The notes: generated from the letters alone by a model not told the origin. Counted from the first letter of the stretch, positions 6,960 through 17,527 are shown. The stretch is DNA of 32,000 nucleotides from Xylanibacter ruminicola 23 (GCF_000025925.1 NC_014033.1:3090001-3122000), one strand, 5' to 3'. Numbers and translations: made by a program.

Positions 6960-8303
6960 ATGAATATGAAGAAAAAGTTTTTTTTATTATCAGCCATTAT
7001 GCTGAGTGGAGTCATCCTTTCGAGCCTCCTTTCATGCAGCTCGTCAGAAGAGATTGAGCAGCTCGAACCCAAGCAAGTTGTAAACATGCTGGGTGAATCA
7101 AAGCCTATACAGCTAACTCAGGAGCAGAGTGTGTTTGTAAACGACAACAACCAGTTTACGCTGAACTTCCTGAAAGCAGTAAACAAGGCTGAACAAAACG
7201 GCCAGAGCTTTATCTATTCGCCATTGAGCATTACCTATGTATTAGGCATGGTGAACGATGCTGCCACAGGACAGACGGAACAGGAGCTGGAACAAGTCAT
7301 GGGTTTCCATCAGGGTGGTATCAAGGCTGTCAACGACTACTGCAAGAAATTGATTGACGGTCTGCCAAAAGTGGATGACAAGGTAACGCTGAACATCGCT
7401 AATGCCCTGTTTGTCAATAAGAACAGGGGCACGCTGCAGCAGCAGTATCAGCAGGACATGAAGCAGTATTATGATGCTCAGGCAGAGAACCTGGACTTCA
7501 AGTTGCCATCAACGCTCAAGACCATCAACGACTGGGCCAGCGATCATACCAATGGCATGATTCCAACCATTCTCGATAAGATAGATGAGAAAGTGGTGAC
7601 CTATCTGCTGAATGCCATCTATTTTAAAGCCGACTGGGCATCTAAGTTCGAGGCAAAGAATACCGAGGAAGAGAAGTTTACTGCGACAAATGGTACCATC
7701 AAGCTGCCATTGATGCACCAGAATGTGCTTATCCAATATCTGAAGAATGAGGATTATAGTGCCATCGAGATACCTTATGGTAATGGTTTATGGAAGATGA
7801 CGGTAATGCTGCCTGAGGAAGGAAAGACCACCGACGACATAATCGAGCGTATAGGACAACTCGGTTTTTTAGAGGGAAATGGATTCTGCGGCACCATGGG
7901 CGACACATACATGGCACACGAAGTTGACCTGAAACTGCCACGCTTTGAAACCAGTTCGGATACAGATAAACTGACATTGAAAGGCGGTCTTGTCGCCCTA
8001 CTGCAACAGCTGGGGATTAATCTGGTATTTAATCAATCCTTATCTGAGGTGCCCAATATGTGCGAAAAAGAGAATATGTATATTAGTATGATGCGCCAGA
8101 AGGCAAAGATTAAGGTGAATGAGGAAGGTTCTGAGGCGGCTGCCGTAACCATTGGTGGGGCAAACTGTACGGCTTTCACCCCTAATCCTCAACCTGTGGA
8201 ATATCCTAAGGCCATATTCCATGCTAATCGCCCCTTTGTGTATACCATCAGCGAGGCCTCATCGGGTGTTATCGTGTTTGTAGGAAAATTTTCTAGGGAG
8301 TAG
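6960..8303 (+). CDS. serpin family protease inhibitor, predicted lipoprotein
   Basis: 447 aa with a lipobox (SSLLSC). Serpin core motifs are present (NAIYFKADWASKFE, LPRFE), as are the inhibitory-type hinge EEGSEAAAVT and the C-terminal NRPFVY. Confidence 0.85.
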   Translation: MNMKKKFFLLSAIMLSGVILSSLLSCSSSEEIEQLEPKQVVNMLGESKPIQLTQEQSVFVNDNNQFTLNFLKAVNKAEQNGQSFIYSPLSITYVLGMVNDAATGQTEQELEQVMGFHQGGIKAVNDYCKKLIDGLPKVDDKVTLNIANALFVNKNRGTLQQQYQQDMKQYYDAQAENLDFKLPSTLKTINDWASDHTNGMIPTILDKIDEKVVTYLLNAIYFKADWASKFEAKNTEEEKFTATNGTIKLPLMHQNVLIQYLKNEDYSAIEIPYGNGLWKMTVMLPEEGKTTDDIIERIGQLGFLEGNGFCGTMGDTYMAHEVDLKLPRFETSSDTDKLTLKGGLVALLQQLGINLVFNQSLSEVPNMCEKENMYISMMRQKAKIKVNEEGSEAAAVTIGGANCTAFTPNPQPVEYPKAIFHANRPFVYTISEASSGVIVFVGKFSRE

Positions 8304-13020: not shown

Positions 13021-14703
13021 ATGCAAACTAAAGGGTTCATTATCAAACGTGTGTGGGTTATAGCCATTTCGTTGGCTATAGTGCTGGTTTCGTGTAAAAA
13101 CGGTGTTAGCGAATTCATTCCGGCGTTTGATGATGAACCTATTGTAAGCCCATTGGCTACGGAGCTTGGTTTCAGCAAGGACCGTCCGCTGGTAATGGGT
13201 ATGAATACCAGTTATGCCCCTTTGCAATACGTAAACAGTCAGGGTTTGCCTACTGGTTACGATGTGGAGTTCACTAAGAAACTGCTGATGCGTATGGGCA
13301 TTCCTTACACTTTCTCGCCAAACCATTGGGACAAAATGTCGCCAGGTATTATTGGTGGAAAGTACGACATGGGTATGCTGGTTTATTCGTCGTATCGTAA
13401 AGATACAACCAACTATTCCGATGCTGTATTCCGCATGTATTATCAGGTGGTTTACAGAAAAAAAGACTTTGCAGAGTTTGATTTCCGTCATCTTAAAGGC
13501 AAGCGCATTGCCTATATGAAGTCGCGCCCTATTGGTTTGATGCTGAAGGACGAAGAGGCCGATGGCTATCCGATAACCGACCTGAATGAGGCTATTGTTG
13601 ATCTTGCAAACGGAAAGTACGATGGTGTTATCTGCTATCGATTCCAGGCAAAATATCATGTAGGACTCCTGCATCTTTCAGATCAGTTAAAGGCCGATGA
13701 TCTGTCGTTAGAGCCTCGCGAATACTGTTATGCCAGTCATGATAAACGCTTGATTGATGCCATCAATGCCGAACTAAAGAAGATGGAGGCCGAGGGCATC
13801 GTCGACGAGATATATGGTCAGGAAGTGGCCGAACGCTTTGGCGATATCAAGATTCCTATGTGGGTTTGGTGGCTGCTCACAGGTCTGGTATTTTTGTTTA
13901 TGGTGGTTTATGTGGTTAACAAGAACCGTTACAATCGCCGTTTGCAGAGTGCCAACGCACAGTTGCAGAAAAACAACAAAGCCCTGCAGTTAGCTACAGC
14001 CAGAGCCGAGGAGAGTACGCGAATGAAGAGCAACTTCATCAAGCAGATCTCGCACGAAATCCGTACACCATTAAATATTATATGTGGTTTTACACAGGTG
14101 TTGACAACTACTGATGCCGAACTGGATAAGGCGGAGAAACGCGATATGTCGGTGCAGATTATCGATAATGCCGAACGTATTACTGGCTTGGTCAACAAAA
14201 TGCTGGCACTTGCCGAAATTAACAGTAGCGTGGTACTGGAGCGCGAAGACCATACGTCGGCTGTTGTCATTGCCCAGGAGGCCATTAAGGCGGCAGGCAT
14301 CAACAAGGCATCGCATGTTCAATTCAAGCTTGTAAAGCTGTTTGGGGCCGAACAGATGTTCGATACCCATCTACGATCAGCTGTTCTGGCTTTGCAGCAG
14401 TTGCTCGATAATGCCAAGAAATTTACCGAACAAGGACAAGTAACATTACAAATAAGTAATCACGAGGGGCAGGCGTATTTTGTGGTCGAAGATACAGGTA
14501 CATCCATCCCCGTATATCAGGCCGAGCGCATATTCGACGAGTTTGTGCAGTTAGACGAGTACAGCGATGGCACAGGCATCGGACTCTCGATAGCGCGTAG
14601 CTTAGCGCGCCGATTGGGTGGTGACATCGTTCTCGACACCACCTATACAGGAGGCGCACGATTCGTGATGACCCTACAAAGCCAGCAAGAAGAAACAGCA
14701 TGA
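13021..14703 (+). CDS. sensor histidine kinase with a periplasmic solute-binding (SBP_bac_3-like) domain; no receiver domain
   Basis: The protein has a signal/lipobox-like N-terminus (IVLVSC), a type-2 periplasmic-binding-like region, a TM helix (WVWWLLTGLVFLFMVVYVV) and a coiled coil. Kinase boxes are present: H-box SHEIRTPLN, N box DNAKKFT, G1 EDTGTSIP and G2 GTGIGLSIA. Confidence 0.85.
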   Translation: MQTKGFIIKRVWVIAISLAIVLVSCKNGVSEFIPAFDDEPIVSPLATELGFSKDRPLVMGMNTSYAPLQYVNSQGLPTGYDVEFTKKLLMRMGIPYTFSPNHWDKMSPGIIGGKYDMGMLVYSSYRKDTTNYSDAVFRMYYQVVYRKKDFAEFDFRHLKGKRIAYMKSRPIGLMLKDEEADGYPITDLNEAIVDLANGKYDGVICYRFQAKYHVGLLHLSDQLKADDLSLEPREYCYASHDKRLIDAINAELKKMEAEGIVDEIYGQEVAERFGDIKIPMWVWWLLTGLVFLFMVVYVVNKNRYNRRLQSANAQLQKNNKALQLATARAEESTRMKSNFIKQISHEIRTPLNIICGFTQVLTTTDAELDKAEKRDMSVQIIDNAERITGLVNKMLALAEINSSVVLEREDHTSAVVIAQEAIKAAGINKASHVQFKLVKLFGAEQMFDTHLRSAVLALQQLLDNAKKFTEQGQVTLQISNHEGQAYFVVEDTGTSIPVYQAERIFDEFVQLDEYSDGTGIGLSIARSLARRLGGDIVLDTTYTGGARFVMTLQSQQEETA

Positions 14704-16151
14704 AACAAACATATCCCATCATAAGGTTCCCTGAAAGGGGAACCATTTTGTATCCCTTTCGTCGTCATCCTCTGGTAACTCAAGGCATGCTTGAACAGAA
14801 GCTTGCCCGCGAGCTTTCGGCTAAGTTGCCCGCTGGCGTTGAGTGCCTGTTAAACGCTTGTATCATCACTACCGACAAGCAGCCGCCATATTATCCCGAT
14901 CTGGCGCTGGTGGTAGCTGGTACCCCCGGCATCCGTATCGATGTAGAGATTGATGAGCCTTACCGCAAGGCAACTCGCGAGCCCATCCACTACCAGTCGT
15001 GTGGCGATGTGTTTCGTGATCATCTGCTTAATCGTCATGGATGGGTAGTAGTGCGTCTGGCCGCTCAGCAAATCGCCCAGGAGCCTGGTATCTGTGCCGA
15101 CTTTTTGGTTGAGTTGGTTACTTGTATGATGTCCGATGGTGCATCTATCCAGCAGCACGAGTTTGCATCGGTGCCCACACCTGTTGAGCCTTGGAGCCGT
15201 AACGATGCGTTAAAAATGGCCTATTGGCAGAATGTGGATGGCGAGGATAAACAATGGATTACCGATAGATATGCCCTCGATGCCGACGAGCTTGACTGCA
15301 AACAGCAGGTTAAACCCTTCAACAAAACCGATGATATGCGCGAAAAAATGGCCACCTTCCGCGATGCAGGCCATTACGAGCAGGATGCCGACATTGATTT
15401 TGAGCCTTGCGAACACATATATATATATAAAGGTATAAAGCGTATGCTGCCTGTCAGCTCGCTCATTGCCTATTTCTTTGATGAATTCCAGGCCCTGCCA
15501 CAAGCCGAAAACCAGTTGCGATTTAAAGGCATACCCGTAGAGGAGAGCTTGGATAAGTGGGAGCGTGCTAGTCGTACAGCCAGCGAGGTGGGTACCTTTG
15601 TACACCTGCAGACAGAGAACTATTTTCAGCGCGGTTTCTTCGAGACCGAGTGCCAGCTGCAGTTTGGTAACGACACTGAAGTGGTGAGTGTAGAGCAGGA
15701 AAAGCTGCACTTTCTGCGTTTTATCCGCGACTACGATATCGAGCCCTATCGCCAGGAGTGGCCCGTTTACGATAAGGATTTGAACATTGCAGGTACCATC
15801 GACCTGATTTGCCAGGACGACGATGGCGAGTTTACCATCTACGACTGGAAACGCTCGTCGAAGGTAGTAAACGCCCAAGGCCAACCCATCGTCGAGGGTT
15901 TTCGTGGCAAGATGAGCCATAACGGTATCAGTCTGCCCGATACCTCGTTCTACCATTATTGCATTCAGCAGAATCTGTATCGCTACATGTTAGAGCGCCA
16001 TTACGGCATCCGTGTAAAGGCTATGAACTTGGTGGTGCTCTGTCCCGATTATCCCACCTATTATGTAGCCCAAGTACCCAAGATGGACCAGCTTATCCAG
16101 CAAATCGTCACCATTTGTCAGCAGCACGATTTAGGCCACAGGTTGCTGTAA
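14700..16151 (+). CDS. two-domain nuclease: N-terminal Vsr/DUF559-like endonuclease fold plus C-terminal RecB/Cas4/MGME1-like PD-(D/E)XK nuclease
   Basis: The ATG overlaps the kinase stop (ATGA at 14700-14703). N-terminal motifs are YPDLALV, IDVEIDEPY and GDVFRDHLLNRHGWVVVRL. C-terminal ordered motifs are EHIYIY..LPVSS, GTFVHLQTE, GTIDLI, IYDWKRS and QQNLYRYM. Confidence 0.6.
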   Translation: MKQTYPIIRFPERGTILYPFRRHPLVTQGMLEQKLARELSAKLPAGVECLLNACIITTDKQPPYYPDLALVVAGTPGIRIDVEIDEPYRKATREPIHYQSCGDVFRDHLLNRHGWVVVRLAAQQIAQEPGICADFLVELVTCMMSDGASIQQHEFASVPTPVEPWSRNDALKMAYWQNVDGEDKQWITDRYALDADELDCKQQVKPFNKTDDMREKMATFRDAGHYEQDADIDFEPCEHIYIYKGIKRMLPVSSLIAYFFDEFQALPQAENQLRFKGIPVEESLDKWERASRTASEVGTFVHLQTENYFQRGFFETECQLQFGNDTEVVSVEQEKLHFLRFIRDYDIEPYRQEWPVYDKDLNIAGTIDLICQDDDGEFTIYDWKRSSKVVNAQGQPIVEGFRGKMSHNGISLPDTSFYHYCIQQNLYRYMLERHYGIRVKAMNLVVLCPDYPTYYVAQVPKMDQLIQQIVTICQQHDLGHRLL

Positions 16152-16516: not shown

Positions 16517-17527
16517 TCATCGCTTGCGGGCGATGACGTAGATGATAACGGGGGCGCCGATGAGAGGGGTGACGGCGTTGAGGGGGATGACACCACTCTC
16601 GCCTGGCAGATAGCAGATAAGATTACATACCAGGGCTACTACCGAACCGCAGAGTAGGGTGGCGGGTAGCAGTTGTCGGTGGTTGTCGGTGGTGAGCAAT
16701 AGGCGGGCTATGTGGGGAACGGCCAGTCCGATAAAGGCTACAGGACCGCAGAAGGCGGTGGTGATAGCGGTTAGCAGACCGGTTACAATCAGTAACCAGT
16801 TGCGTACTCGCAGAATATTTACGCCTAAGTTCTCGGCATATCTGTCGCCCAGCATCAAGGCATTCAAGGGTTTTATCAACAATAAAGCCCCAATAAGGCC
16901 AGCTAACGTAACAATGGCAAACACAGGCATGTTGGTCATCGACACGCCACCAAACGAGCCCATACCCCATACCATATACGATTTTACGCCCTCGTCGGTA
17001 GCAAAAAAGTTAAGCAGCGATATGGCCGAGTTGCTGATGTAGCCAATCATGATACCTATGATTAATAGCATCACACTATTGCGAACCAAGGTTGAGAAGA
17101 AAAAGATGATGGTCATCACCGTCATGGCGCCCACAAAGGCAGCCAGCAGGATGGCAGCAAAACCTGTGATGCTGACCGAACCTACGGAAAGTCCGCCACC
17201 TAAAAACAGCATCACCAATGCCACACCCAGCCCGGCACCGCTGTTTACACCAAACACACTGGGACCAGCCAGCGGGTTGCGGAAAGCCGTTTGTAGCATC
17301 AGTCCGCTTACAGCCAAAGCGGCACCACACAGGGTGGCTGTGATGGCTTGGGGCAGTCGCGACTCCAAAATGATGAACTGCCACGAGGCTTTGGCGGTTT
17401 CATCGCCCAAAAGTATGCTTACAACATCACCTGCTGGAATCGATACCGACCCCAACAGCAGATTGAGCGCGAAGAGTACCATGACCACTAATCCCAATCC
17501 TAAGCAATAAACCGAACCTTTGTTCAT
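16517..17527 (-). CDS. FecCD/BtuC-family ABC transporter permease (iron-siderophore/cobalamin type)
   Basis: 336 aa, about 9-10 hydrophobic helices, and family-typical segments (LLLGSVSIP, RLPQAITATLCGAALAVSGLMLQ, NPLAGPSVFGVNSGAGLG, VIPLNAVTPLIGAPVIIYVI). Confidence 0.85.
   Translation of the reverse strand: MNKGSVYCLGLGLVVMVLFALNLLLGSVSIPAGDVVSILLGDETAKASWQFIILESRLPQAITATLCGAALAVSGLMLQTAFRNPLAGPSVFGVNSGAGLGVALVMLFLGGGLSVGSVSITGFAAILLAAFVGAMTVMTIIFFFSTLVRNSVMLLIIGIMIGYISNSAISLLNFFATDEGVKSYMVWGMGSFGGVSMTNMPVFAIVTLAGLIGALLLIKPLNALMLGDRYAENLGVNILRVRNWLLIVTGLLTAITTAFCGPVAFIGLAVPHIARLLLTTDNHRQLLPATLLCGSVVALVCNLICYLPGESGVIPLNAVTPLIGAPVIIYVIARKR

What the first reader, a model, noticed from the sequence alone, without database searches (positions are those of the whole stretch)
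14700..16151. 483-aa protein fusing two different PD-(D/E)XK-type nuclease domains
Residues ~1-145 carry a Vsr/DUF559-like restriction-endonuclease pattern: YPFRRHP ... YYPDLALV ... IRIDVEIDEPY ... GDVFRDHLLNRHGWVVVRL. Residues ~230-483 carry the ordered RecB/Cas4/MGME1-type motif set: H-x-Y in EHIYIY followed by LPVSS, G-x-x-H in GTFVHLQTE, D in GTIDLI, D/E-x-K in IYDWKRS, and Q-x-x-x-Y in QQNLYRYM. The Cas4 cysteine cluster is absent. An acidic linker joins the two halves. No helicase, ATPase or methylase partner is present, and I do not recognise this as a named family. That layout looks more like a stand-alone effector (defence, toxin or specialised repair) than a housekeeping enzyme. The gene sits at the centre of the window and is the last gene of its string.
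Basis: partly seen in the sequence, partly recalled or inferred. Interest (0 to 1): 0.72.

Follow-up and report, generated by a model that had tools for sequence, protein, structure and literature searches.

The report
Two-nuclease fusion protein in Prevotella
A rumen Prevotella gene fuses a Vsr/DUF559-type endonuclease domain to a phage-type exonuclease domain; it is the anchor-less, vertically inherited branch of a previously undescribed Bacteroidota family whose usual members are tethered to the membrane and sometimes travel with mobile elements or retrons, so it probably degrades DNA, but its cellular role is untested.

Summary
ORF 14700..16151 (+) encodes 483 aa with two different PD-(D/E)XK-type domains. 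Residues ~1-145 are DUF559/Vsr-like; this is weak for the window sequence alone but clear at family level. Residues ~205-483 are a phage-type exonuclease: PHROG 298 E 8e-29, best PDB fold match MGME1, then Cas4 and Exo5. Putative catalytic residues of both halves stay conserved down to 26% identity.

The "acidic linker" is acidic, but it is a conserved, confidently folded helical bridge.

The window is Xylanibacter (Prevotella) ruminicola-like chromosome with no mobile-element or defence genes. The gene sits at a fixed site in many rumen Prevotella. The kinase neighbour is not conserved. About 28 species keep only the exonuclease half.

Outside Prevotella the same module usually follows an N-terminal transmembrane anchor and a charged spacer. 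It has no constant partner gene. It is cargo on one mobilizable element and ends a retron-like cassette in three genomes, but in none of 46 further relatives.

Best reading (0.45): a DNA-degrading nick-and-resect enzyme descended from membrane-tethered anti-foreign-DNA effectors. Its role in Prevotella may have shifted toward DNA-end processing. New variant of a known kind; interest about 0.5.

The parts
14700..16151 (+). Complete ORF, 483 aa plus stop: two-nuclease fusion protein. Its ATG overlaps the stop of the upstream sensor-kinase gene by 4 nt (ATGA, 14700-14703).
   Evidence: ORF; 468 homologues, full-length orthologues of 476-495 aa; AlphaFold2 mean pLDDT 91.6, pTM 0.86.
14700..15134 (+). 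N-terminal DUF559/Vsr-type endonuclease-fold domain, residues 1-145. The motif order is D67 (PD), E83-I84-D85, H97, D103-x2-R106-D107, G114-W115-x-V-x-R119.
   Evidence: DUF559 in 40/47 family members, MTES_1575 in 19/47; profile against PDB 3HRL, E 4e-4; model pLDDT 86; top fold hit 3HRL, prob 0.95, TMt 0.73, E 0.18; invariant residues.
14898..14990 (+). Codons of the putative N-domain active site: D67 (14898-14900), E83-I84-D85 (14946-14954), H97 (14988-14990).
   Evidence: Invariant or >=90% conserved in A1, A2 and A5. A sub-significant profile alignment puts PD on EcoRV's PD and E-I-D on EcoRV's D-I-K, which I recognise from memory as EcoRV D74 and D90-I-K92.
15135..15311 (+). Acidic but structured helical bridge, residues 146-204, with conserved W165, A170, A174, E197. 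It travels with the N-domain in stand-alone cyanobacterial plasmid homologues, whose matches run to about residue 175.
   Evidence: helices 147-152, 167-176, 195-203; pLDDT 77-94; conservation; net charge -9 over residues 146-232; N-half matches extend to residues 173-177.
15312..16148 (+). C-terminal phage-type PD-(D/E)XK exonuclease unit, residues 205-483 (RecB/Cas4/MGME1 clade, without an Fe-S cluster). This is the unit that exists alone in about 28 Prevotella species, in phages and in giant viruses.
   Evidence: PHROG 298, E 8e-29, residues 205-468; PDDEXK_1; MGME1 5zyu/8xa9 TMt about 0.6, Cas4 4ic1, Exo5 7lw7; 96 viral structures at E<=1e-3; stand-alone homologues.
15603..15980 (+). Codons of the C-domain active-site motifs: H302 (15603-15605, within G-x-x-H), D368 (15801-15803), D382-W383-K384 (15843-15851), Q423...Y427 (15966-15980).
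   Evidence: Invariant across the diverse alignment A2, down to 26% identity.

Best explanation
The gene encodes a soluble cytoplasmic enzyme with two nuclease active sites in one compact protein. An N-terminal Vsr/DUF559-type endonuclease domain and a C-terminal phage-type (MGME1/Cas4/RecB-clade) exonuclease domain are held together by a structured acidic helical bridge.

Inferred mechanism: metal-dependent degradation of DNA. The endonuclease half makes a nick or cut, and the exonuclease half threads the resulting single-stranded end and resects it.

The protein is the anchor-less branch of a Bacteroidota-wide family. In most other members the same module hangs on the cytoplasmic face of the inner membrane, below an N-terminal transmembrane segment and a long charged spacer. 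Those members are scattered, have no fixed partner gene, and sometimes ride on mobilizable elements or end a retron cassette. The ancestral role is therefore most likely destruction of incoming or foreign DNA.

In rumen Prevotella the anchor was lost and the gene became fixed at one chromosomal site. Only the exonuclease half is strongly conserved, and the endonuclease half was lost in some species. The present role there may be narrower: processing or removal of linear DNA ends.

Shown here: the two folds, the conserved catalytic residues, the family architecture, the genomic contexts, and the order of domain loss (the last only approximately). Inferred: catalytic activity, substrate, cooperation of the two sites, and the biological role.
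For: - Folds and motifs.
- Compact two-domain model: pTM 0.86.
- Family architecture: 120 of the 150 best representatives carry the whole module. Of these, 112 have an N-terminal extension of at least 100 aa (median of all 120 extensions 266 aa), and 92 of the 112 contain a TM-like segment.
- Topology: positive-inside rule, K+R 0.9 before the last TM against 3.85 after it, with after greater than before in 80 of 92. This puts the module in the cytoplasm.
- Distribution: patchy across Bacteroidota, with two copies in one Rufibacter genome. No conserved neighbour.
- Mobile-element context: cargo position next to integrase-, primase- and Mob-like genes in L086-L089, read from N-terminal sequence only. 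Neighbours elsewhere include resolvase, Mob_Pre, Schlafen/AlbA_2, WYL and N6_Mtase.
- Retron link: WYL, a1/a2 inverted repeats, RT, an ORF, then the TM+module protein in L053, L056 and L076.
- Prevotella branch: shared flanks FabF/RNase III and FecCD. Identity is 71% in the C-domain against 48% in the N-domain. C-only orthologues have no N-half within 8 kb. Long TM forms are basal in the C-domain tree.
- Precedents: SNIPE, a membrane-tethered nuclease with a variable N-terminus (PMC13190303). A Vsr-like domain serves as a defence effector in CoCoNuT III-B (PMC11090510).
Against: - No experiment exists for any member.
- The window copy has no anchor (maximum hydropathy 1.28), no defence or mobile neighbours, and no PADLOC hit beyond weak Cas4.
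- Long-term vertical retention at one site, with divergence similar to RNase III, is unusual for defence genes.
- The retron link does not generalise: 0 of 46 further relatives with enough upstream sequence have an RT.
- An unanchored, unregulated general DNase should be toxic, as SNIPE lacking its TM is. The soluble form must therefore be restricted in some way that I could not identify.
- Evidence for the N-domain is weak for this sequence alone (Foldseek E 0.18; DUF559 below its cut-off).
- Its third acidic position is D, not K, so catalytic competence is unproven.
- The tree is neighbour-joining without support values.
Confidence: 0.45

Rival explanations
1. Domesticated housekeeping exonuclease. 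In Prevotella the protein is a cellular DNA repair or recombination enzyme of phage origin, working like RecE, lambda Exo or MGME1 on flaps and ends. The Vsr-like half is an optional accessory, and the protein has no role in defence.
For: - Fixed chromosomal site shared across many rumen Prevotella, between FabF/RNase III and a FecCD/TonB transport locus.
- Housekeeping neighbourhood.
- The C-domain is 71% conserved, comparable with RNase III (67-76% in the same genomes).
- About 28 species keep only the exonuclease half.
- The closest solved fold is MGME1, a genome-maintenance exonuclease.
Against: - Not universal: the family is patchy in Bacteroidota and nearly absent elsewhere.
- The nearest outgroups are membrane-anchored, variable proteins, some on mobile elements.
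- No repair or recombination partner (recombinase, SSB, ligase) lies nearby in any locus.
- No assigned function in NCBIfam.
Confidence: 0.3
2. Only the C-terminal exonuclease is catalytic. The N-terminal DUF559-like domain is an inactivated PD-(D/E)XK fold that binds or recognises DNA, or mediates oligomerisation, as inactive PD-(D/E)xK domains do in other defence proteins. This rival concerns the mechanism and is compatible with either biological role.
For: - The canonical lysine position is D85 (E-x-D rather than E-x-K).
- The N-domain evolves faster (48% against 71%) and is dispensable in some species.
- Fold statistics for it are weak.
Against: - D67, E83, D85, H97, D103, R106 and D107 are invariant or nearly so over the whole family. 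That is the pattern expected of an active site.
- From my own knowledge of these families, E-x-D followed by H is the normal DUF559/Vsr arrangement rather than a degenerate one.
Confidence: 0.25
3. Kinase-controlled effector. The nuclease is the output of the upstream orphan sensor histidine kinase (13021..14703), whose stop overlaps its start. On this reading the kinase replaces the fused membrane sensor of the long forms.
For: - ATGA overlap and the same strand.
- The kinase has a periplasmic solute-binding domain plus HisKA and HATPase.
- No response regulator was found among the window ORFs of at least 120 aa that I scanned.
Against: - The kinase is adjacent only in the three closest genomes (L008-L010). 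L011 and L012 have rubredoxin directly upstream. More distant orthologues have unrelated upstream genes.
- The nuclease has no receiver domain.
Confidence: 0.04
4. Functional link to cobalamin or iron uptake. The gene belongs with the TonB-receptor / DUF5074 or DUF4465 / Peripla_BP_2 / FecCD transport locus that lies downstream of many orthologues.
For: - Three distant orthologues have such a locus immediately downstream, one with a cobalamin riboswitch between the genes.
- The window has FecCD at 16517..17527.
Against: - In the window the transporter gene is convergent, not co-transcribed.
- The riboswitch lies after the nuclease gene, so it regulates the transporter only.
- Outside Prevotella the association disappears.
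- No biochemical rationale exists. Conserved local synteny explains the pattern best.
Confidence: 0.03

Closest known systems
Viral PD-(D/E)XK exonucleases (PHROG 298; phage, giant-virus and large insect-virus 'putative exonuclease' proteins) and, among solved structures, human MGME1
   Same: The C-terminal unit (residues 205-483) matches PHROG 298 at E 8e-29. It matches 96 predicted viral structures at E<=1e-3, the best at 1.9e-13 with target TM 0.72. MGME1 is the best PDB fold match, with target TM about 0.6. The ordered motifs are the same: G-x-x-H, D, D-x-K, Q-x-x-x-Y. There is no Fe-S cluster, which as I recall also holds for MGME1.
   Different: The viral proteins are stand-alone, 240-320 aa. 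Here the unit is fused to a second nuclease domain and, in most relatives, to a membrane anchor. Identity to MGME1 is only 12-14%, and a sequence search of the PDB finds nothing.
Cas4 (CRISPR adaptation nuclease)
   Same: Same PD-(D/E)XK clade and motif order. Weak hits to Cas4 models (TIGR00372 E 0.015; PADLOC Cas4 E 1.4e-4). Fold match to SSO0001 and to type I-C Cas4.
   Different: No conserved 4-Cys Fe-S cluster. The score of 15 bits is far below the 65-bit equivalog cut-off. No cas genes in the window.
DUF559 / Vsr-like endonuclease-fold domains (Pfam PF04480, REase_MTES_1575; structure 3HRL)
   Same: The N-domain shares the motif order D ... E-x-D ... H ... D-x2-R ... G-W-x-V-x-R-F. 40 of 47 family members hit DUF559. 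The family profile hits 3HRL at E 4e-4, and 3HRL is also the top fold hit.
   Different: The window sequence itself scores below the Pfam cut-off. No dcm-type methylase is nearby, which as I recall is Vsr's usual genomic partner. From my own knowledge, known DUF559 domains are typically small stand-alone proteins or C-terminal tails of helicases, not N-terminal partners of an exonuclease.
SNIPE, a membrane-bound nuclease that cleaves phage DNA during injection (Nature 2026, PMC13190303)
   Same: The long family members share the architectural logic: a variable N-terminal region with one or two TM helices, a middle region, and a well-conserved cytoplasmic nuclease at the C-terminus. They are single genes and widely scattered.
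   Different: Unrelated domains: SNIPE has DUF4041 plus GIY-YIG, and this family has two PD-(D/E)XK domains. The window protein has no anchor at all. SNIPE without its anchor is toxic. No experiment exists for this family.
Protease-less type XI-like retrons of Bacteroidota ('TXI_C2like', bioRxiv 10.64898/2026.05.14.725207)
   Same: In L053, L056 and L076 a WYL gene, terminal inverted repeats and an RT whose best PADLOC match is the type XI RT precede a member of this family. This fits that lineage as described.
   Different: The preprint does not list this protein; a term search of its text and supplementary files found no matching entry. The link is confined to a small subclade, with 0 of 46 further relatives carrying an RT, and it is absent from the window.
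CoCoNuT type III-B (McrBC-related type IV restriction; eLife 2024, PMC11090510)
   Same: A Vsr-like PD-(D/E)xK domain is used as a defence effector, together with coiled-coil regions and more than one nuclease.
   Different: CoCoNuTs are multi-gene systems built on McrB GTPase, McrC and a helicase. None of these is present here.

Membership tests
PD-(D/E)XK exonucleases of the RecB/Cas4/MGME1 clade (Pfam PDDEXK_1; PHROG 298), C-half | Profile match at or above the curated threshold | tested here: met
   PDDEXK_1 scores 22.4 bits (whole protein) and 23.7 bits (C-half) against a cut-off of 22, which is marginal. PHROG 298 gives E 8e-29 over residues 205-468.
PD-(D/E)XK exonucleases of the RecB/Cas4/MGME1 clade, C-half | Ordered catalytic motifs G-x-x-H, D, (D/E)-x-K and Q-x-x-x-Y conserved | tested here: met
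   H302, D368, D382, K384, Q423 and Y427 are invariant in the diverse alignment A2.
PD-(D/E)XK exonucleases of the RecB/Cas4/MGME1 clade, C-half | Fold similarity to solved members | tested here: met
   Foldseek against the PDB: MGME1 E about 1e-4 with target TM 0.56-0.63, Cas4 SSO0001, Exo5, RecE, AdnAB nuclease. Against BFVD: E 1.9e-13.
PD-(D/E)XK exonucleases of the RecB/Cas4/MGME1 clade, C-half | Metal-dependent exonuclease activity on DNA ends | not testable with these tools
   Needs biochemistry.
Cas4 proper | Four conserved cysteines binding an Fe-S cluster | tested here: not met
   No Cys of the C-half is conserved in more than 15 of 21 sequences, and there is no cluster pattern.
Cas4 proper | Equivalog-level profile score (TIGR00372 cut-off 65 bits) and association with cas1/cas2 | tested here: not met
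   15.2 bits. No cas genes in the window.
DUF559 / Vsr-like endonuclease fold, N-half | Pfam DUF559 match above the gathering score (20.6 bits) | tested here: inconclusive
   The window sequence scores 12.2-14.2 bits, below the cut-off. At family level, 40 of 47 N-domains match at E<=0.05 (best 4.5e-6) and 19 of 47 match MTES_1575.
DUF559 / Vsr-like endonuclease fold, N-half | Similarity to a solved DUF559-type structure | tested here: met
   The family profile against 3HRL gives E 4e-4. 3HRL is also the top Foldseek hit: probability 0.95, target TM 0.73, though E is 0.18.
DUF559 / Vsr-like endonuclease fold, N-half | Motif order D ... E-x-D ... H ... D-x2-R-x3-L-x3-G-W-x-V-x-R | tested here: met
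   D67, E83-I84-D85, H97, D103, R106, D107, G114-W115 and R119 are conserved. The family consensus used for comparison is from my own knowledge.
Vsr proper (T:G mismatch endonuclease) | Pairing with a dcm-type cytosine methylase; mismatch-specific nicking | tested here: not met
   No methylase in the window. The activity itself is not testable here.
SNIPE-like membrane-tethered defence nuclease | N-terminal transmembrane anchor | tested here: not met
   Maximum 19-aa hydropathy of the window protein is 1.28, so no TM segment. It is met by 92 of the 112 relatives that have long N-terminal extensions.
SNIPE-like membrane-tethered defence nuclease | DUF4041 plus a GIY-YIG nuclease | tested here: not met
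   Neither Pfam nor PADLOC reports these domains. The nuclease folds here are PD-(D/E)XK.
Retron effector (type XI-like cassette) | Adjacent retron RT and an msr/msd-type ncRNA with terminal inverted repeats | tested here: not met
   No RT or WYL coding potential anywhere in the window. The feature is present only next to relatives L053, L056 and L076, and in 0 of 46 further relatives.
Known anti-phage defence systems (PADLOC-DB 2.0) | Match to any system model | tested here: not met
   Only weak Cas4 models match (E 1.4e-4 to 4e-3). The library dates from 2023.

The most novel reading that the evidence does not exclude
The family is an undescribed class of single-gene, membrane-tethered dual-nuclease immunity proteins of Bacteroidota. 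It would work like SNIPE in logic, but with a Vsr-like nicking domain and a phage-derived exonuclease domain that together destroy DNA entering at the membrane. In one subclade it would be the missing effector of the Bacteroidota-specific protease-less type XI-like retrons. The Prevotella gene in this window would be a derivative that shed the anchor, and in some species the nicking domain as well, and was taken over for a chromosomal DNA-end-processing role.
Probability: 0.3. Interest if true: 0.7.

Novelty: new variant of a known kind. Interest (0 to 1): 0.5.

Why it matters
Both domains belong to well-known nuclease folds, so this is not a new kind of enzyme. The combination has no name, no Pfam model and no literature that I could find. 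It nevertheless defines a large family: 406 clusters at E<=1e-30 and at least 549 loci in reference genomes, in a phylum that dominates gut and rumen microbiomes and whose defence repertoire is poorly charted.

If the anchored forms are immunity proteins, they add a second, independent example of the membrane-tethered nuclease strategy recently shown for SNIPE. They would also give a candidate effector for a retron lineage whose effector is unknown.

The Prevotella branch offers a clean natural series of domain loss: anchor, then spacer, then endonuclease. That series could show how a conflict gene is converted to a resident cellular function. All of this can be tested with simple biochemistry and Bacteroides genetics.

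Tried and rejected
- A single-sequence search of the PDB gave only a spurious aminomutase hit.
- A PDB profile search with the Prevotella-only N-domain alignment gave sub-significant EcoRV matches. Only the more diverse alignment reached 3HRL.
- I looked for a conserved partner gene by all-against-all clustering of neighbours in 42 loci. None was found beyond local synteny.
- I considered the kinase as a regulator and rejected it because the adjacency is not conserved.
- I considered a link to the cobalamin transport locus and its riboswitch. I rejected it as synteny only.
- I tested whether the retron association generalises, using the single metagenome scan. It does not: 0 of 46.
- Rfam has no family for the putative retron ncRNA. 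The inverted repeats were not recovered in L076.
- GenBank phages hold only two weak C-half matches, both in unannotated huge phages.
- The sigma-70 promoter and terminator scan was uninformative, with counts at or near the shuffled expectation; Bacteroidota promoters also differ from the sigma-70 consensus.
- The retron preprint's text and supplementary tables did not list this protein.
- I did not annotate the conserved neighbours of the giant-virus homologues, because profile searches were running out.

Full report
**1. The observation**

The window holds an ATG-initiated ORF at 14700..16151 on the + strand, encoding 483 aa. The start codon overlaps the stop of the upstream gene by four bases (ATGA). 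The next gene downstream (16517..17527) is on the other strand, so this is the last gene of its string. Base composition is unremarkable (GC 0.50 against 0.45-0.51 nearby).

**2. The C-terminal half**

- Pfam reports PDDEXK_1 just above its cut-off: 22.4 bits for the whole protein and 23.7 bits for the C-half, against 22.
- NCBIfam and PADLOC give only weak Cas4 similarity, far below the curated cut-off.
- The strongest sequence evidence is PHROG 298, annotated 'exonuclease': E 8e-29 over residues 205-468.
- An AlphaFold2 model built on 25 orthologues is confident (mean pLDDT 91.6, pTM 0.86).
- Against the PDB its best matches are human MGME1 (E about 1e-4, target TM 0.56-0.63), then Cas4 SSO0001, Exo5, ACE1, RecE and the AdnAB nuclease.
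- Against predicted viral structures it has 96 matches at E<=1e-3. The best is a marine-phage 'putative exonuclease' (E 1.9e-13, target TM 0.72). Others come from Pithovirus, crAss-like phages and large insect DNA viruses.
- H302, D368, D382, K384, Q423 and Y427 are invariant in an alignment reaching 26% identity.
- No cysteine cluster is conserved.

The C-half is therefore a phage-type PD-(D/E)XK exonuclease of the RecB/Cas4/MGME1 clade. It is not a Cas4.

**3. The N-terminal half**

- For the window sequence alone the evidence is weak. DUF559 scores 12-14 bits against a cut-off of 20.6, and MTES_1575 and EcoRV are at E about 0.1.
- I modelled residues 1-158 separately (pLDDT 86). The top Foldseek match is 3HRL, a Neisseria 'endonuclease-like protein', with probability 0.95 and target TM 0.73 but E 0.18. 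NotI and EcoRV follow far behind.
- Family-level tests are clearer. Of 47 diverse N-domains, 40 match DUF559 (best E 4.5e-6) and 19 match REase_MTES_1575. A profile of those 47 hits the 3HRL sequence at E 4e-4.
- Conserved residues follow the order D67 ... E83-x-D85 ... H97 ... D103-x2-R106-D107 ... G114-W115-x-V-x-R119. From my own knowledge this is the DUF559/Vsr motif order.

I accept the N-half as a Vsr/DUF559-type endonuclease-fold domain. Whether it is catalytically active is not shown.

**4. The segment between the halves**

Residues 146-232 carry a net charge of -9. They are nevertheless predicted as helices with pLDDT 77-94 and hold conserved positions. Part of the segment, up to about residue 175, travels with the N-domain in stand-alone relatives on cyanobacterial plasmids, mostly predicted conjugative. 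The rest, from about residue 205, belongs to the exonuclease unit as found in phages and in C-only orthologues. It is a structured bridge rather than a loose linker.

**5. Where the window comes from, and its context**

The gene is 97% identical to one in Xylanibacter (Prevotella) ruminicola Ga6B6. Nearly every ORF of at least 120 aa in the 32 kb is chromosomal envelope or housekeeping:

- DUF3108, Big_5, GH3, an outer-membrane protein, an ECF sigma factor and a serpin.
- RNase III, FabF, DUF4254, a family-9 glycosyltransferase and rubredoxin.
- An orphan sensor kinase, then the nuclease, then a FecCD permease.
- Outer-membrane beta-barrel/receptor-type proteins, a LiaF-like protein, an M13 peptidase, a LytTR protein and a transglutaminase-like protein.

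There is no RT, WYL, integrase or relaxase coding potential of the kinds seen beside relatives. This is not a defence island.

**6. The Prevotella branch**

- A word-indexed search found 468 homologues. The best 120 are all full-length or nearly so, at 52-91% identity, and lack any precomputed Pfam domain. NCBI's name is 'PD-(D/E)XK nuclease family protein'.
- Three distant orthologues have different upstream genes. All have a TonB-receptor / DUF5074 or DUF4465 / Peripla_BP_2 locus downstream, one behind a cobalamin riboswitch.
- The sensor kinase is adjacent only in the three closest genomes.
- About 28 further Prevotella species encode a protein of about 270-320 aa that is 57-69% identical to the window's C-half. 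No N-half is detectable within 8 kb.
- Several of these loci share FabF/RNase III upstream, and others share FecCD downstream, with the window. They are therefore positional orthologues.
- Within the two-domain orthologues, mean pairwise identity is 48% for the N-domain, 43% for the bridge and 71% for the C-domain.
- In the same genome comparisons RNase III is 67-76% identical. The exonuclease half therefore evolves about as slowly as a housekeeping neighbour.

**7. The wider family**

- An exhaustive profile search found 6792 representatives at E<=1e-3 and 406 at E<=1e-30.
- Of the best 150, 120 carry the complete two-domain module. Of those, 112 have an N-terminal extension of at least 100 aa, and the median extension over all 120 is 266 aa. 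Of the 112, 92 contain at least one TM-like segment.
- Charge distribution around the last TM follows the positive-inside rule in 80 of 92 (K+R 0.9 before, 3.85 after). That places the nuclease module in the cytoplasm. The spacer between anchor and module has a median of 160 aa and is rich in charged residues.
- Some extensions carry extracytoplasmic modules, for example a lipoprotein signal plus WG repeats in P0144.
- In reference genomes the family has at least 549 loci. Nearly all are in Bacteroidota, the distribution is patchy, and one Rufibacter has two copies.
- A neighbour-joining tree of the C-domain places the long anchored forms basally and the Prevotella clade nested among them. Inside that clade, forms with a coiled-coil remnant (about 575 aa), two-domain forms (about 483 aa) and C-only forms (about 285 aa) interleave. 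The C-only forms fall in two groups.
- This fits stepwise loss of anchor, spacer and endonuclease. The tree has no support values, so the number of losses is tentative.

**8. Genomic associations outside Prevotella**

- Clustering neighbours across 42 loci found no conserved partner.
- Pfam and PADLOC scans of 149 neighbours gave a mixture of housekeeping genes and mobile or defence markers. These included reverse transcriptase (4), resolvase, Mob_Pre, Schlafen/AlbA_2, WYL/WCX, ResIII (2 each) and N6_Mtase (1).
- Three taxonomically separate loci (L053, L056, L076) share the string WYL regulator, retron-type RT, a 250-300 aa ORF, then the anchored two-nuclease protein. The RT's best PADLOC match is the RT part of type XI (E about 1e-97).
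- In L053 and L056 the region before the RT carries 20-21 nt terminal inverted repeats 200-212 nt apart. The differences between the two loci are compensatory. This is the a1/a2 signature of a retron ncRNA.
- This fits the Bacteroidota-only 'TXI_C2like' lineage of a 2026 preprint. A term search of that preprint's text and supplementary files found no mention of this protein.
- The link does not generalise. Among 46 metagenomic relatives of that subfamily with at least 3.5 kb upstream, none has an RT.
- Four related 'viral' contigs (L086-L089) are better read as a mobilizable transposon. From N-terminal sequence alone, I read the upstream genes as integrase, primase-like and Mob-like. A 961-aa anchored member sits in the cargo position.

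**9. Mechanism**

Shown:
- Two nuclease folds with conserved putative active sites in one compact protein.
- A cytoplasmic, membrane-tethered arrangement in most relatives.
- No partner gene.

Inferred:
- Metal-dependent DNA degradation, in which the Vsr-like half makes the nick or cut and the exonuclease half threads and resects the end.
- This would give a self-sufficient 'nick-and-resect' enzyme.

The anchored forms resemble SNIPE in design. SNIPE has a variable N-terminus with TM helices and a conserved C-terminal nuclease, and it is toxic when the anchor is removed (PMC13190303). Its domains are unrelated. CoCoNuT III-B is a precedent for a Vsr-like effector in defence (PMC11090510).

For the soluble Prevotella protein some restriction of substrate must exist, or it would damage the chromosome. 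Dependence on free DNA ends is the likeliest, and as I recall it is typical of the MGME1/Cas4 clade. I could not test this.

**10. Weighing the readings**

| Reading | Evidence | Weight |
|---|---|---|
| Anti-foreign-DNA role | Family-level features | 0.45 (lineage and mechanism together) |
| Resident, housekeeping-like role | Lineage-level features in Prevotella | 0.30 |

Two further rivals received little weight. Kinase control is at 0.04 and a B12-locus link at 0.03.

The possibility that the N-domain is non-catalytic (0.25) cuts across both main readings.

**11. Novelty and score**

Both folds are known. I found the fusion, the anchored architecture, the retron and mobile-element associations and the reductive series in Prevotella in none of the libraries or papers I could search. 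I class the finding as a new variant of a known kind. Interest is 0.5. The window copy itself is the least conflict-like member, and nothing about function has been tested.

Noticed in passing
L053:738-6602; L056:3065-9452; L076:3296-9413: A retron-like cassette is shared by three unrelated Bacteroidota-type genomes. The order is a WYL regulator, 20-21 nt terminal inverted repeats 200-212 nt apart (compensatory differences between L053 and L056), an RT whose best match is type XI but which lacks the protease, an unannotatable 250-300 aa ORF, and then the membrane-anchored two-nuclease protein. The ncRNA is not in Rfam. The arrangement fits the 'TXI_C2like' lineage of a 2026 preprint, whose effector is unknown.
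   Followed up: partly
L086-L089 (e.g. L088:1-11097): IMG/VR 'viral' contigs that look like a Bacteroidales mobilizable transposon. From N-terminal sequence alone I read a tyrosine integrase, a small HTH protein, a primase-like protein and a Mob relaxase-like protein. A 961-aa anchored family member follows, and then two conserved ORFs of 386 and 269 aa of unknown function.
   Followed up: partly
L022-L051 (e.g. L022:7977-8849, L039:8010-8858): About 28 Prevotella species carry a protein of about 270-320 aa holding only the exonuclease unit, at a site syntenic with the window, with no N-half within 8 kb. Together with orthologues of about 575 aa that keep a coiled-coil remnant (P0089, P0094, P0099), this gives a natural series of N-terminal domain loss.
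   Followed up: yes
L091-L165 (viral contigs, many GVMAG): Stand-alone homologues of the C-terminal unit (239-325 aa, about 30% identity) are common in giant-virus MAGs and large phage contigs. They have recurrent neighbours, including proteins of about 1850 aa and 1300 aa and a 289-aa protein always at position +1 in 27 loci. I did not annotate these neighbours.
   Followed up: partly
L166:5872-6492; L167:5581-6585 (cyanobacterial plasmids): The N-terminal domain plus the first part of the bridge occurs alone as 206-334 aa 'hypothetical proteins' on plasmids of Nostocales and other cyanobacteria, most of them predicted conjugative.
   Followed up: partly
L004:9764-9946; L001, L006 downstream genes; window 16517-17527: Orthologues sit just upstream of a cobalamin-type uptake locus (TonB receptor, DUF5074 or DUF4465, Peripla_BP_2). 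L004 has a full cobalamin riboswitch there (100.8 bits). In the window only a convergent FecCD permease remains, and no riboswitch was found.
   Followed up: yes
window 14725-14744: A GC-rich stem-loop followed by a T-rich tail (GGTTCCCTGAAAGGGGAACC ATTTTGT) lies 22 nt after the kinase stop codon, inside codons 9-15 of the nuclease ORF. These codons encode conserved residues. It could attenuate read-through from the kinase gene. The count of such sites in the region is not above the shuffled expectation.
   Followed up: no
window 13021-14703: A sensor histidine kinase with a periplasmic solute-binding (SBP_bac_3) domain and no response regulator among the window ORFs I scanned. It is present at this position only in the three closest genomes, so it is probably a recent insertion between rubredoxin and the nuclease gene.
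   Followed up: partly
window 6960-8303: A 447-aa bacterial serpin (Pfam Serpin, E 1.2e-84) next to an ECF sigma factor gene. This is an uncommon gene in bacteria.
   Followed up: no
L067 and L075 (Rufibacter sp. XAAS-G3-1): Two separate copies of the anchored family member lie on different contigs of one genome. This is consistent with accessory or mobile behaviour outside Prevotella.
   Followed up: no
P0167 residues 522-620; P0144 residues ~30-480; P0147 and P0249 C-termini: The variable regions of long family members carry assorted extra modules. These are a weak phosphoribosyltransferase-like match (P0167), a lipoprotein signal plus WG beta-repeats outside the membrane (P0144), and C-terminal extensions of 158-222 aa (P0147, P0249).
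   Followed up: no
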